64,000 bases of DNA from Styela clava (Eukaryota): positions 21,390,001 to 21,454,000 of the forward strand of contig NC_135260.1 in NCBI RefSeq assembly GCF_964204865.1, read 5' to 3'. Within the stretch, counting starts at the first letter, position 1. Each line of letters opens with the position of its first letter. The position numbers were made by a program. Below, one piece after another: positions 1 through 6,000 of the stretch.

Positions 1-3000
1 TAGTGATTTCGATACGAAACCCGTTTTTGAAATTTCGAATACTATCGCTACACATAACACTAACCCAAAATACTGTGTTATTGGTGGTATTGGTGACGGT
101 GTTCGAGTAATCACGCGAAGTCACTGCGCGTTCGATGCTGCATCACATTAAAATAGTGTATTTTCTATGAAATGTGTGTCAAGATTTATTTTCTGTTCCC
201 AATTGTTTATTCCTAACACTCCTTCAATCCTGATACACAAATAGCAGGACCATGATGCTGTTTTACACATTCTAGAATCTAGACTCACCACGTTCTATAT
301 ATCTAAAATTTTAATCAATTTTTTTTTGTTAATGTTGGCATTCCGTCGAGTAGTAACTCGGACCTGAAATACCTTCAACTTGACTAAAGTGGTCGGATAT
401 TTCAATTAACGCTTCAATATGAATAATCTTTCATGAACATCATAAAATAGCTGATTTCCGATAGGAATTTTCACAAATATAGATCATATAATGCCAGTGG
501 GGTTTAGACCAGAGACAATGTGGATGTCATAGATCTCCAAGAACTCGCAAATTTTCAAGACAAGACCTTAGCCTCAATTATACAAAAAAACGCATACCAG
601 TTTTTTATAACAGCATAGTGTAATATTGCAATGAAAAAATAAAGATAAACAAACAATATCTTAGAACCGCGGAAACCTCAAAACACAAATTTTATCACGC
701 ATCCGAACACACAAAAATCACACACATTGAGATGTATGCTCTTATTTACTTTCTTTCCCCGGGGGCGTTTGATCCTTGGGGTTGTTTTGGAAATGGCTTC
801 CTAATGTCAGAGCCGTCGTTAAGACGAGCCCGTAGCTTAGTTTTTATGACGGCAACTGGGAGAACCCGGCTTCGCAGAGATAGATCGGGACAAGAGGGAG
901 TGTCACTTTCGCAGCGAGATTGAGAAAGACCTCGTGCCGAAAGAAAGACTGGCAGCAGTCACGAACTGTATCTTCAGGCGACCGGAGTTCTTCAAATCGA
1001 TTAAATCATCCTTCAGCATGGCCTCTTCGTCAATTGGAATCGTGAAATTCACGGCTCGACCGACAGTTTCGGGAAGTATCCATGAAGACTGTCAGACAGA
1101 AACTTTAGAGTTTAAATGACCCTTGATGTCAATGATAGTGTTAAATTCCGCCAACAAAATTGCCAAGTATCCATTTATGATCTAAGCAGCAAAAAATCAT
1201 GCCACTGCTATACCGTTACATGCCACTGTTACCGTGTCGGATAAAATACTCTTAAAATGAGCCAATATTTTTGCATACTGCAGAAGTTATTGTAGGATTT
1301 TTTTGTCAGTCAAGAAACACGATATTGGACAAGTTTATTCCGAAACCTCGGCAGCGACAAATCTTGTACGTAACAAGAGAGCTATGCTCAAATATATGGA
1401 CACGTAGAGTCACATAATTTTGATGACGTCATAGCGGAAAAAAAAGTAATAGATTTCTGAAGAAAATTTTTATCTTTAACCACTGGAAATTTCAAAGCAA
1501 TTGGTCCAGTATTCGAAGAGAAAAGCGACTTTTTAAAAACGTGTCAAAGAAGAACAACAACAACATAATATTGAAACGATCGTTATGTCCACTACGTGTC
1601 GAATAATATGCTCTATTCTATCCAGTCTATCGGACCTCCTCAGACTCGTATGCTTTTCTTGTTTACGCAATCGACGGGTTGACCCCCTCGGACACACACC
1701 TTTTTTCTTTACATATCACAATACTATTTGTGTTGCCACTTGATTGTTTCTATACATTAATAAATATTTTTGTTGAGCAATAACAAGTAAGAAAGCACGA
1801 ATTAGGCTAGAATCTGGTGCCTTTCTAAGTAAATTTCGAATAAATATTTGATAGGGACCCCGTGATATCCTCTTATTACACTTGCCTTTCTTGTATCATA
1901 GCTGTCCTACTTGTCCTGCATTTGCCGTGCTTATCTAACACTTGTTCTGATTTTCCCCAAATGTCCCGCTGGCATCACACTGTTTTTCCCATACTTATCC
2001 TGATAGTCCCACACTTATCCTGATAGTCCCACATTTGTAATGTACGTATTAAACTTTTTTTGCCAATCCCAAATATATTCTTATCGTCTCATACACGTTC
2101 TGATTGAATCAAACTTGTCTCACAATTTCTCTTCTTGGACCTACGCAGCATAGTTCTTGAAACCCAACTTCATAATAAAAAAGGTGGTTTACTTCTCTAT
2201 TAATTCCACCTATAACATATTTTCCAGAATTTCATTTGAATAAATACTGTTTACAAAGTCACGCATTGCCGATTTCTACTTTTAATGCTCGGACAAAAGA
2301 ATAATGCACTGGAATGTTGAGCCAATTAATTAATTATTACGTGATTAAACGGCTTTTTCTCATTCCAGTGGGAAAACATGCATTGTCGCTATAATGACAA
2401 CAGTTTTGTTGATATTAGGTTTACGTATCATACTTAGGATTTGTTGTAAAGGAAACAGAAAATGCAGTCGCTATTTTCTAACTTTGCATCTTTTTTGCTT
2501 AGGCCTATTTATACGGATTTGTCAATGACTGCACCACATTAGCTTCCAGTACACTTCATCGAGAGGTAGATCGAGGTATTTATGACAAACCTTGAGGTTT
2601 CAAGCTAAATATTTGTGTGAACAACTTCATATTCATAACAGACTGATCAAATTTAAGTCAGTTTACGGATAATTGGAAAATAGGAAAGAAGTAAGTGTAC
2701 TCGGATGAATATATTATCAAGGCGTGTTTCGATTTCAAGTACTATATTTGTGACAAAGAATATTTGTCTAAAATTATCATCTTCTGTTATGGCAACCTCA
2801 ATATGGCGAGTCATATAATATCTATATTTCTACAAAACAATAGACGAAACGCTTTTAGTCGCATTTTGACTTTAACTACCAAATATCATCTTTCGTTTCT
2901 ACAAAATTGCCTTTTTTTCATTATTATTATTTGGCCTCCACACCAGCCTTCTCACTGACACAACTTATAAATCAAGAAACATAATGGACTTCCCTTTCAT

Positions 3001-6000
3001 GGCGACATCAATTGTTACATAACAATAGCTATTTCCACGCAGACATTGGGACATAATCATCTTTCTTCGCCTTGTTAAATATTCATTTGAAAAAATCATA
3101 TTTTGGTCAAATTTTAAGATCATACTGACGGTCGACTAAATAAAATTAGTTTCCCTTAATATTCTTAATGCGCTCCTAGTTTTAACCGCTTTTTACGATG
3201 GGATTCGACGGAAGTTTGCAGGAGAGCGTTTATATGGGTTCGACAGGATCACAAAAGGGAAGAAATATTGGGGTTACGTAACCTGCGTGGAAAAGCTAAT
3301 GGTGTGTCACAATGGTGTTGACGGCAGTGGAGCGGAAATGCTTTATATTATATAACTGAGACGGGAGAGATACTGATAAAGGCACAAATTGCTACTTGAA
3401 AAGATGATATGCCTCAATAATCTTATAGCTCAAGTAATTTGTTTATTAAACTTCATTTTGCATTGAATAAAGGCGTTTGAAATTTGTTATAGGAAATAAA
3501 GATACCATATTAACCAGCGACATATTGAGGTAGTCCAGAACGAACAATATGATCCCGGGCAAAGCTCTGCAATAAAGTATTCTTTGTTACAAATCTAACA
3601 CTTGGAAAATTCCAACTCGCCCTGATTTTGTGCTCATTTATATACATTACCATCAAGGATTTGAGTTTTCCGCGAAACTGAGTTGTGTACAGTATGTTGG
3701 TAGATTACGAATAAAAGTCGTTCACACAAATATTTAGCTTAAAACCCTAACTTTGTCTCGCAACCGAAGATATTTTACTTTTATATATTCTACTACTATA
3801 TTCTACTTTGAAGTTGACTTATACACTATAAGTGTCCCAATATAATGCAAACCCGCAAAATTGCTAATAAATATGTTGATTTTAATAATTTCGTTTAATT
3901 TTATCTGATACCAGTTATAGATACAACTATTTTTCAAAACCCTATGCCTATGAAGTTGAAAAAAAAATTGTTCTGTGGGACTGTTTAAATAAACTTCTGC
4001 GGGACGTTTTATTTCAACACTTACCATGGATCTATCAAATCTATGGAACTGTGAATAATCGTAGCAAGAAATCAAAGAATCCATCTAGTTCAGGGGTGGG
4101 CAATTACTTTTCTGAGTGTGCCGGATACAGATAATAGACTTAGTTTCATATTGAGCTTACTGGGCCGGAGGCTCAATATGAAACTATGAATGAAAACAGT
4201 TTATTCACAAAAAAATCAGCGTAAAACTAGTGTACAAAGCGATACAATCATTAATTGGACTGATGTAGGCTACTGAACGCGTTTAGTAGCTTATTTAAAT
4301 CAGGCCGGAAGCTGCTTGTGCTGATTCTCAGACCGTTTGTAAGTTATTTGTCTCAGGTACCCAATGACAGAACCGGGACATTTCGTGGCTACTAGTTTTT
4401 ATGCTAATCGTATCAATCGGTTTTAACCTAGACTTTCGCTGCAACATATATTTATCATAAAACATTTACGTTCAAATCATTTCAATATTTAGTTGCCGGT
4501 CCGTGTGTACATGGTACCAGATTAGGGTTAGGCCATAATTTCAGGTACAAATAATACTGGAGTCACTTGGCTTGTCTTAACTCGAAATAGAACTAAAATA
4601 AGGAAAATTGGAATAAAATTAGGGTCTAATCCTAGCCAGGTACACATAATACGCCCCGGTGTCCCGCCATCTTGGTTCACATATTTCGGGAGTACCGATT
4701 ATGGTAATCAAGCTTACGTATTGGCATACATACATTTTCTGAAATGAGGAAACCAGTTGTTAGTGATTTCGATACGAAACCCGTTTTTGAAATTTCGAAT
4801 ACTATCGCTACACATAACACTAACCCAAAATACTGTGTTATTGGTGGTATTGGTTACGGTGTTCGAGTAATCACGCTAAGTCACTGCGCGTTCCATGCTG
4901 CATCACATTAAAAAAGTGTATTTTCTATGAAATGTGTGTCAAGATTTATTTTCTGTTCCCAATTGTTTATTTCTAACACTCCTTCAATCCTGATACACAA
5001 ATAGCAGGACCATGATGCTGTTTTACACATTCTAGAATCTAGACTCGCCACGTTCTATATATCTAAAATTTTAATCAATTTTTTTTTGTTAATGTTGGCA
5101 TTCCGTCGATTAGTAACTCGGACCTGAAATACCTTCAACTTGACTAAAGTGGTCGGCGATTTCAATTAACGCTTCAATATGAATAATCTTTCATGAACAT
5201 CATAAAATAGCTGATTTCCGATAGAAATTTTCACAAATATAGATCATATAATGCCAGTGGGGTTTAGACCAGAGACAATGTGGATGTCATAGATCTCCAA
5301 GAACTCGAAAATTTTCAAAACAAGACCTTGGCCTAAATTATACAAAAAAACGCATACCAGTTCTTTATAACAGCATAGTGTAATATTGCAATGAAAAAAT
5401 AAAGATAAACAAACAATATCTTAGAACCGCGGAAACCTCAAAACACAAATTTTATCACGCATCGAACACACAAAAATCACACACATTGAGATGTACGCTC
5501 TTATTTACTTTCCCCGGGGGCGTTTGATCCTTGGGGTTGTTTTGGAAATGGCTTCCTTATGTCAGAGCCGTCGTTAAGACGAGCCCGTAGCTTAGTTTTT
5601 ATGACGGCAACTGGGAGAACCCGGCTTCGCAGAGATAGATCGTGACAAAAGGGAGTGTCACTTTCGCAGCGAGATTGAGAAAGGCCTCGTGCCGAAAGAA
5701 AGAAACTTTAGAGTTTAAATGACCCTTAATGTCAATGGTAGTGTTAAATTCCGCCAACAAAATTGCCAAGTATCCATTTATGATCTAAGCAGCGAAAAAT
5801 CATGCCACTGCTATACCGTTACATGCCACTGTTACCGTGTCGGATAAAATACTCTTAAAATGAGCCAATATTTTTGCATACTGCAGAAGTTATTGTAGGA
5901 TTTTTTTGTGAGTCAAGAAACACGATATTAGACAAGTTTATTCCGAAACCTCGGCAGCGACAAATCTTGTTCGTAACAAGAGAGCTATTATGGACACGTA

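What the first reader, a model, noticed from the sequence alone, without database searches (positions are those of the whole stretch)
2580..3760. Hidden ~1.2-kb pseudogene-derived palindrome at the heart of the amplified unit: candidate hairpin-RNA locus
Seen: the two halves around ~3170 are collinear reverse complements (paired coordinates sum to ~6290-6340). They are roughly two-thirds identical by eye, with weaker matches possibly out to ~2270/4080. One segment is far better preserved: 21 bp perfect (2602-2622 vs 3720-3740), flanked by C/T and A/G differences that would be G:U pairs in a minus-strand RNA, extending the helix to ~40 bp. The structure occurs six times in the window. Established: inverted duplications of gene fragments give rise to hairpin endo-siRNA loci (Drosophila hpRNAs, mammalian oocyte pseudogene siRNAs). 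Inference: this is an old fold-back duplication of a GPCR gene fragment that could make dsRNA/small RNAs against its gene family, with tandem amplification raising dosage. Elsewhere the arms differ by many transversions and indels, so it may just be an inert relic.
Basis: partly seen in the sequence, partly recalled or inferred. Interest (0 to 1): 0.7.

Follow-up and report, generated by a model that had tools for sequence, protein, structure and literature searches.

The report
Old decayed inverted repeat, probably inert
A real but heavily decayed 1.2-kb inverted repeat of non-coding DNA sits in each copy of a tandemly repeated block; it shows no sign of coming from a receptor gene and no convincing sign of being kept for making hairpin RNA.

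Summary
Arms 2584-3042 and 3283-3757 are collinear reverse complements: 309 of 495 columns identical, score 67 against 14.2±1.5 in 200 shuffles. A 240-nt spacer separates them. The structure occurs six times, and a seventh right arm stands alone. The 21-bp perfect core and the G:U-extended minus-strand helix are real. The suggested extension to ~2270/4080 is not.

All six reading frames gave no Pfam family, so no 7TM receptor. A full HMMER search of one left-arm frame gave one hit, an artefact of a 20-fold repeat. A right-arm frame gave nothing.

Arm differences show no pairing bias: 47 transitions against 83 transversions, and 21 plus-strand against 26 minus-strand G:U-type changes. Among the copies, 15 changes break pairs and 6 make them, which fits chance. 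One copy is split by a transposon insertion. A third, internally deleted arm copy lies nearby.

Best reading: two old, oppositely oriented copies of a non-coding ~470-bp repeat unit, carried passively when the 4.6-4.8 kb block was amplified. RNA data, which could overturn this, were not available. Interest is low.

The parts
2584..3042 (+). Left arm of the palindrome, copy 1 (459 nt)
   Evidence: aligns as reverse complement to 3757-3283; no significant extension outward or inward.
3043..3282 (.). Central spacer (240 nt), the loop if transcribed
   Evidence: no arm-arm similarity inside it; copy 3 has lost 67 nt here.
3283..3757 (-). Right arm, copy 1 (475 nt), inverted relative to the left arm
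2596..2627 (+). Best-kept outer block, left side. It contains the 21-nt perfect core 2602-2622.
   Evidence: 32 nt, 94% complementary; core occurs 13 times, only in arms; permutation test.
3715..3746 (-). Best-kept outer block, right side. It contains the core 3720-3740.
7204..8394 (.). Palindrome copy 2 (arms 7204-7679 and 7920-8394)
11966..13089 (.). Palindrome copy 3 (arms 11966-12441 and 12615-13089), with the spacer 67 nt shorter
16629..17817 (.). Palindrome copy 4 (arms 16629-17102 and 17343-17817), in the last unit of the first array
33479..34676 (.). Palindrome copy 5 (arms 33479-33961 and 34202-34676). Its left-arm core carries one mismatch.
59861..61299 (.). Palindrome copy 6 (left arm 59861-60097 plus 60333-60580, right arm 60825-61299). 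The left arm is split by an insertion.
60098..60332 (.). 235-nt MITE-like insertion inside the left arm of copy 6, with ~41-nt terminal inverted repeats and a 9-bp target-site duplication (60089-60097 and 60333-60341)
   Evidence: sequence; empty site 2812-2820; absent from copies 1-5; relatives at 4514-4702 and elsewhere.
58352..58779 (-). Seventh right arm, standing alone, differing at 30-34 of 444 shared columns from the six others. Part of a partial unit copy.
37060..37249 (-). Third member of the arm family (X), an internally deleted copy in the orientation of the right arm. An outer-end piece abuts an inner-end piece.
20141..20297 (-). Paralogue of X in the duplicated flank 17865-20583

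Best explanation
The 1.17-kb palindrome is two old, oppositely oriented copies of a non-coding repeat unit of about 470 bp, 240 bp apart. They arose by a local inverted duplication, or by two nearby copies of the same repeat, long before the surrounding 4.6-4.8 kb block was amplified in tandem. The palindrome was then copied passively with the block. It has most likely no function of its own. Its ability to fold as RNA is a by-product of the inverted arrangement. Shown: the anatomy, the relative ages, the lack of any detectable coding origin, and the lack of a substitution pattern that protects pairing. Inferred: that it is inert, and that the better-kept outer block reflects uneven decay or an old terminal function rather than present selection.
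For: (1) Age. Kimura distance between the arms is 0.377, with 130 mismatch and 56 gap columns. Unit copies are 94-98% alike.

(2) The arm is a repeat unit. A third copy, X, at 37249-37060 (paralogue 20297-20141) joins an outer-end piece to an inner-end piece. The outer piece matches left arm 2570-2633 at 67%, and 0 of 300 shuffles reach its score. The inner piece matches right arm 3406-3272 at 74%, E 2e-21.

(3) No coding origin is detectable. Pfam found 0 families in all six frames. The only phmmer hit is an artefact. The right-arm frame has no relative. Stop counts and open stretches resemble shuffles, apart from one 87-codon stretch in the left arm of copy 1, which 78 of 2000 shuffles reach.

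(4) No pairing-protecting pattern. There are 47 transitions against 83 transversions. G:U-type changes are 21 on the plus strand and 26 on the minus strand, p 0.56. With an alignment built from the consensus arms, 34 minority changes among the copies divide as follows: 15 break a pair, 6 make one (null mean 3.6; 716 of 5000 simulations reach 6), 6 change a mismatch to another mismatch, and 7 fall in gap columns. None of 35 varying pairs changed on both sides.

(5) Copies are damaged without apparent cost. Copy 6 has a 235-nt transposon in its left arm. Copy 3 has lost 67 nt of spacer, and copy 1 lacks 17 nt that the other left arms have. Copy 5 has a change inside the 21-nt core that breaks the pair on both strands.

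(6) Whole-hairpin energy does not favour either strand: -315.5 against -312.0 kcal/mol.
Against: (a) The outer block is better kept than uniform decay predicts (145 and 108 of 20000 permutations). It forms a clearly better helix on minus-strand RNA, -64.9 against -47.5 kcal/mol, with 33 bp uninterrupted.

(b) Among five aligned copies the arms vary less than their surroundings: 33 variable of 893 columns (3.7%) against 74 of 1162 (6.4%), Fisher p 0.007. Without CpG sites the figures are 27 of 844 against 62 of 1076, p 0.0085. The contrast does not follow the arm borders. It comes mainly from two variable stretches, 2259-2558 and 4159-4358. The flank 3759-4058 is as invariant as the arms.

(c) Tandem amplification of hairpin loci is a known feature of real hpRNA clusters (PMC10317233, passages read).

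(d) Transcription and small RNAs were not testable. No eukaryotic genome collection was available, so the copy number of the arm family is unknown.
Confidence: 0.65

Rival explanations
1. The whole 1.17-kb structure is the relic of one non-autonomous DNA transposon of the foldback or long-terminal-inverted-repeat type. The well-kept outer block is what remains of its transposase-binding ends.
For: The best-kept part lies at the outer ends (30 of 32; permutation test). A transposon with the same build, with well-kept ~41-nt termini and halves only 68% complementary over 257 columns, is present in the window. It inserted recently with a 9-bp target duplication.
Against: No target-site duplication flanks 2584 and 3757 (sequence read). 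The outermost 12 nt are less well kept than the block just inside them. All six copies share their flanks as parts of one amplified unit, so no independent insertion is seen. The third copy X carries both the outer and the inner end of a single arm. That fits a ~470-bp unit better than one 1.17-kb element.
Confidence: 0.15
2. It is a small-RNA locus: a hairpin-RNA or proto-microRNA-like precursor transcribed from the minus strand. Only the 21-33-bp duplex at the base of the hairpin is still under selection, and tandem amplification raises dosage.
For: The perfect core has the length of a Dicer product. The minus-strand helix is 33 bp uninterrupted, or about 50 bp with one bulge. The outer block is better kept than the rest. 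The arms vary somewhat less than their surroundings. Tandem hpRNA clusters are known. The inverted-duplication model expects foldbacks that decay around a retained small-RNA segment (PMC1790633, passages read).
Against: The 5-to-1 minus-strand excess of G:U-type changes in the outer block rests on six sites. Over the whole arms it is 26 to 21. Only one perfect helix reaches 21 bp, and the next longest perfect runs are 11, 11 and 10. The duplex would close a loop of about 1.1 kb of poorly paired RNA. The outer blocks vary among copies as much as the arms do: 3 of 57 and 2 of 58 columns. One change breaks the core in copy 5. No target is present: the core occurs only in the arms. No Rfam family reached its gathering score in the window, and the three weak matches at E<=10 lie far below theirs.
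Confidence: 0.07
3. The arms derive from a fragment of a GPCR gene or of another protein-coding gene, decayed beyond the reach of the searches made.
For: One 87-codon open stretch lies in the left arm of copy 1 (2695-2955), and only 78 of 2000 shuffles reach that length. Lineage-specific receptor families may be missing from Pfam.
Against: Pfam found 0 families in six frames at E<=10 and in the whole unit at E<=1. The ten longest non-redundant ORFs of the window gave nothing above a curated cut-off, and frames of 17865-22861 gave none either. The window has no ORF above 139 codons. The single phmmer hit is a helicase-fragment repeat, not a receptor, and scores only 2.2 bits per repeat. The right arm has no open stretch beyond chance (708 of 2000). 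The other left-arm copies carry 17 nt that copy 1 lacks within the span of that open stretch.
Confidence: 0.03

Closest known systems
Drosophila hairpin-RNA (hpRNA) loci, including the tandem clusters hp-CG4068 and hp-tHMG (PMC10317233, passages read)
   Same: A long inverted repeat that folds back on itself. It is repeated in tandem (six copies here; 9-20 and 13 copies there).
   Different: For the hp-tHMG cluster the paper describes near-perfect complementarity of the inverted repeats, arms homologous to a target gene, Dicer-2-dependent siRNAs and a defined primary transcript. Here the arms are 62-70% identical with one 21-bp perfect run. No parent or target gene was found. Expression is unknown.
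[quoted passage not shown] 2004 seen only in that paper's reference list)
   Same: An inverted duplication whose arms drift while one segment of small-RNA length stays paired.
   Different: Those foldback arms keep detectable similarity to a protein-coding parent family, and small RNAs were sequenced from them. Here no parent was found. The retained duplex lies about 1.1 kb apart at the base of a very long, poorly paired stem. The organism is unknown.
Foldback or MITE-type DNA transposons with long terminal inverted repeats, such as the 235-nt element at 60098-60332 of this window
   Same: Best-kept sequence at the outer ends, and a decayed palindromic interior.
   Different: No target-site duplication. 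No independent insertions were seen. A third copy behaves as a single arm rather than as a half-element.
Pseudogene-derived inverted repeats giving endo-siRNAs in mouse oocytes (recalled from the literature; only search listings seen)
   Same: Inverted-repeat architecture proposed to give hairpin dsRNA.
   Different: Those arms are recognisable pseudogene copies of expressed genes. Here no gene similarity was detected.

Membership tests
hpRNA (hairpin endo-siRNA) locus | Inverted-repeat arms that form an extended, highly paired duplex | tested here: not met
   62% identity with gaps and 70% without. Perfect runs are 21, 11, 11 and 10. The MFE still uses 246-281 of 394 pairs in arm-arm register, so the hairpin is long but much interrupted.
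hpRNA (hairpin endo-siRNA) locus | Dicer-dependent ~21-nt small RNAs from the arms, and a primary transcript that rises without Dicer (as described in PMC10317233) | not testable with these tools
   No RNA-seq or small-RNA data were available.
hpRNA (hairpin endo-siRNA) locus | Arms homologous to a target gene | tested here: not met
   Pfam found nothing in six frames. There were no credible protein relatives. The core occurs only in the arms within the window. The rest of the genome was not searchable.
GPCR-derived pseudogene | Detectable similarity to a seven-transmembrane receptor family in some frame | tested here: not met
   0 Pfam families in 6 of 6 frames of 2200-4150 (E<=10) and of 1-4763 (E<=1).
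Terminal-inverted-repeat DNA transposon (MITE or foldback) | Terminal inverted repeats | tested here: met
   2596-2627 against 3715-3746 is 94% complementary over 32 nt, and the alignment runs to 2584/3757.
Terminal-inverted-repeat DNA transposon (MITE or foldback) | Target-site duplication at the ends | tested here: not met
   The flanks of 2584 and 3757 read share no direct repeat. Decay could have erased a short one.
Terminal-inverted-repeat DNA transposon (MITE or foldback) | Independent copies at unrelated sites | tested here: inconclusive
   Within the window all full copies share flanks. Only the solo deleted arm X lies elsewhere. No eukaryotic genome collection was available.
Plant-type MIRNA from inverted duplication | A foldback with a discrete small-RNA duplex, and arms similar to a parent gene family | tested here: inconclusive
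   A 21-bp perfect duplex is present. No parent family was found. Processing is not testable.

The most novel reading that the evidence does not exclude
The palindrome is a hairpin small-RNA precursor caught late in its decay. Selection now holds only the 21-33-bp duplex at the base of a minus-strand hairpin, and the six tandem copies serve dosage, as in tandem hpRNA clusters. The slightly lower variation of the arms among copies and the better-kept outer block would be its footprint.
Probability: 0.06. Interest if true: 0.55.

Novelty: new member of a known kind. Interest (0 to 1): 0.15.

Why it matters
As it stands it matters little. It is an unannotated, decayed inverted repeat in repeat-rich non-coding DNA, and such repeats are common. 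It is a useful caution on two points. AT-rich sequence translates into hydrophobic-looking peptides that can be mistaken for receptor fragments. Any inverted repeat also beats shuffles in folding energy, so that test alone does not separate a hairpin-RNA gene from a relic. If small RNAs did come from the 21-33-bp duplex, the locus would be an example of a tandemly amplified hairpin precursor with no recognisable parent gene, which would be worth following up.

Tried and rejected
(1) Extension of the arms to ~2270/4080 and into the spacer was rejected.

(2) GPCR or other coding origin. Pfam was run on six frames with stops read as X and on ten ORFs, and found nothing.

(3) The phmmer hit P0001 (E 4.5e-23) looked like a lead to a helicase fragment. 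P0001 is 20 tandem 70-residue repeats of an AAA_12 piece. Each repeat matches at 9-10 identical of 31-35 residues, pair E 0.002-0.013. A profile of one repeat scores 2.2 bits on the left arms and does not hit the right arms. It was rejected as a sum of repeated weak matches.

(4) Copy 1 seemed to have gained five pair-making changes in its right arm, and its right arm scores 5-7 points higher against every left arm. An outgroup, the solo arm, made four of these five changes derived. With an alignment built from the consensus arms the effect disappeared. It was an artefact of fitting the alignment to copy 1.

(5) Lower variation in the arms is nominally significant. It does not follow the arm borders, so I do not take it as constraint.

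(6) Known RNA families: Rfam at gathering thresholds found 0 in the window. At E<=10 on 2400-3950 there were three weak matches far below their thresholds. No tRNA genes were found.

(7) The palindrome as the breakpoint of the amplification was rejected. The unit junctions, the array end (unit coordinates ~3804-3846) and the breakpoints of the short 2.29-kb units (~1700 and 4336) do not coincide with 2584 or 3757.

(8) Finding the organism from the 138-codon ORF 63396-63809. This gave 12 unnamed hits covering 25-43% of the query and no names, and was not pursued.

(9) Internal tandem structure of the arms: none.
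Full report
**What the window is.** The window is 64 kb with no N and 31-39% G+C. No open frame exceeds 139 codons under the standard code. It has no tRNA gene and no Rfam family at gathering thresholds. It consists largely of repeated blocks.
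- Four tandem units of about 4.6-4.8 kb fill 1-17864.
- Further unit copies lie at about 32469-35268 and 59337-61896.
- Three short 2.29-kb units at 25455-32583 lack the part of the unit that holds the palindrome.
- Copies are 94-98% identical.

I could not name the organism. The one search aimed at this returned only unnamed partial hits, and I did not fetch or use them. I built no spliced gene model, so there was no joined step to leave out.

**The observation.** The two halves around 3170 are collinear reverse complements.
- blastn aligns 2584-3042 to 3757-3283 at 63.0% over 497 columns, E 3.6e-24.
- A Smith-Waterman alignment scores 67, against 14.2±1.5 (maximum 19) for 200 dinucleotide shuffles. 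It has 309 of 495 identical columns and 56 gap columns.
- The arms are 459 and 475 nt long, and the spacer is 240 nt.
- Neither an outward extension (score 13; 116 of 300 shuffles reach it) nor an inward one (score 9; 191 of 500) is significant.

The 21-bp perfect core is real and occurs 13 times in the window, always in an arm. A run of 21 matches arose in only 145 of 20000 permutations of the alignment columns. The 30-of-32 window arose in 108 of 20000. This outer block is truly better kept than the rest.

The differences flanking the core are mostly of the kind that gives G:U on minus-strand RNA: 5, against 1 of the plus-strand kind and 3 transversions, in the outer 57 columns. This gives an uninterrupted 33-bp helix on the minus strand, against 21 bp on the plus strand. 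The outer duplex energy is -64.9 against -47.5 kcal/mol.

Six complete copies exist, and a seventh right arm stands alone at 58352-58779.

**Folding.** As a single strand, 2584-3757 folds into the expected long, interrupted hairpin. In-register arm-arm pairs account for 246 of 394 MFE pairs on the plus strand and 281 of 394 on the minus strand. MFE is -315.5 and -312.0 kcal/mol, against -243.0±8.7 and -243.3±6.5 for 35 dinucleotide shuffles each (z -8.3 and -10.5). Any inverted repeat would pass this test, so it does not separate a gene from a relic. The two strands are equally stable overall.

**Is it derived from a GPCR or any other gene?**
- All six frames of 2200-4150, with stops read as X, gave no Pfam family at E<=10.
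- All six frames of the whole unit 1-4763 gave none at E<=1.
- The flank 17865-22861 gave only a sub-threshold DUF match.
- The ten longest non-redundant ORFs of the window gave nothing above a curated cut-off.
- An exhaustive HMMER search of the left-arm frame with the longest open stretch, against 1.84 billion representatives, gave one hit. That protein is 20 tandem repeats of a 70-residue helicase (AAA_12) fragment. Each repeat matches at 9-10 identical of 31-35 residues. A profile of one repeat scores 2.2 bits on the left arms and misses the right arms. The E-value is a sum over repeats, not homology.
- A word-indexed search with a right-arm frame gave nothing; 0 of 6 candidates passed.
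- Stop-codon counts resemble shuffles. The 87-codon stretch in copy 1 is reached by 78 of 2000 shuffles, and the other left arms carry 17 nt that copy 1 lacks within its span.

Only one frame of each arm went to the large protein searches. Lineage-specific receptor families outside Pfam cannot be excluded. Even so, nothing supports 'pseudogene-derived'.

**Is pairing protected?**

*Between the arms.* The 130 mismatch columns hold 47 transitions and 83 transversions, close to saturation. The G:U-compatible kinds are balanced, 21 on the plus strand and 26 on the minus strand, p 0.56.

*Among the six copies.* 35 of 439 aligned pairs vary, and none changed on both sides. A first count suggested that copy 1 had gained pair-making changes. 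That alignment had been fitted to copy 1. With an alignment of the consensus arms, the 34 minority changes comprise:
- 15 that break a pair;
- 6 that make one (null mean 3.6; 716 of 5000 simulations reach 6);
- 6 that change a mismatch to another mismatch;
- 7 in gap columns.

*Against my reading.* The arms vary less among five aligned copies than their surroundings do: 33 of 893 columns against 74 of 1162, p 0.007. The difference persists without CpG sites, p 0.0085. A sliding window shows that it comes from two variable stretches, 2259-2558 and 4159-4358. The flank 3759-4058 is as quiet as the arms. The outer blocks are no quieter than the arms, at 3 of 57 and 2 of 58 variable columns.

*Damage to individual copies.* Copy 5 has a change in the core that breaks the pair on both strands. 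Copy 3 lost 67 nt of spacer. Copy 6 carries a 235-nt insertion in its left arm.

**What the arms are.** A profile of 11 arms finds one more relative, present twice because its locus is duplicated: 20141-20277 and 37072-37232. Closer alignment shows that this copy X joins two pieces.
- A piece like the outer end of an arm: left arm 2570-2633 at 67%, with 0 of 300 shuffles reaching its score.
- A piece like the inner end: right arm 3406-3272 at 74% over 137 columns, E 2e-21.

X is therefore an internally deleted single arm, in the orientation of the right arm and without an inverted partner. This makes the arm a repeat unit of about 470 bp with at least three old copies near one another. The palindrome is two of them in opposite orientation. 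Whether the unit once moved, or was copied by local duplication, cannot be settled without the genome.

The alternative is that the whole 1.17 kb is one foldback-type transposon whose ends are the well-kept block. It gains some colour from a small transposon of the same build in the window. It lacks a target-site duplication and fits X poorly.

**Comparison with known systems.** Real hpRNA loci are defined by Dicer-2-dependent siRNAs and by a primary transcript that rises in dcr-2 mutants. Their arms carry homology to targets, and they do occur as tandem clusters (hp-CG4068 and hp-tHMG). The inverted repeats of the hp-tHMG cluster are described as near-perfectly complementary (PMC10317233, passages read). 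The plant inverted-duplication model describes foldbacks that drift, some to the point of losing interaction with the parent family (PMC1790633, passages read). The present locus shares the architecture and the tandem repetition. It fails the tests that could be made, namely duplex quality and a parent or target gene. The defining tests, small RNAs and a transcript, could not be made. Work on mouse oocyte pseudogene siRNAs is recalled; I saw only search listings.

**Verdict.** Most likely this is an inert relic carried along by the amplification (confidence 0.65). The most novel reading still open is a late-stage hairpin small-RNA precursor held by its 21-33-bp basal duplex (about 6%).

Noticed in passing
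60098-60332 (target duplication 60089-60097 and 60333-60341; empty site 2812-2820): A 235-nt MITE-like transposon with ~41-nt terminal inverted repeats and a perfect 9-bp target-site duplication has inserted into the left arm of palindrome copy 6. Copies 1-5 keep the empty site, so the insertion is younger than the duplication that made copy 6.
   Followed up: partly
4514-4702, 9138-9326, 13833-14021, 26278-26466, 28577-28765, 30863-31051, 55886-56075: Partial relatives of that small transposon (81% over 192 columns for 55886-56075, opposite orientation) sit once in each long and short repeat unit. They keep one terminal repeat.
   Followed up: partly
25455-32583: Three short tandem units of about 2.29 kb correspond to the long unit without its ~1700-4336 part, and so lack the palindrome. 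They also hold ~390 nt with no match in the long unit.
   Followed up: partly
37000-37060 and 20081-20140; 4090-4130; ORF 63396-63809 (-): A G+C-rich palindromic motif lies next to copy X (a GGCCCGCGGGCC-like core). A related stretch translates into the 138-codon ORF. That ORF's only database relatives are unnamed partial matches covering 25-43% of it. It is probably another dispersed repeat.
   Followed up: partly
2259-2558 and 4159-4358 (unit coordinates, copy 1): Two stretches of the unit vary two to four times more among the copies than the rest: 17-20 and 18 variable columns per ~200, against 3-10 elsewhere. The cause was not examined.
   Followed up: no
P0001 (database protein, not in the window): A predicted 1396-residue protein made of 20 near-identical 70-residue repeats of an AAA_12 helicase fragment. 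It produced a misleading E-value of 4.5e-23 by summing weak matches.
   Followed up: yes
4141-4186: A perfect 16-nt inverted repeat with a 14-nt loop lies just downstream of the palindrome.
   Followed up: no
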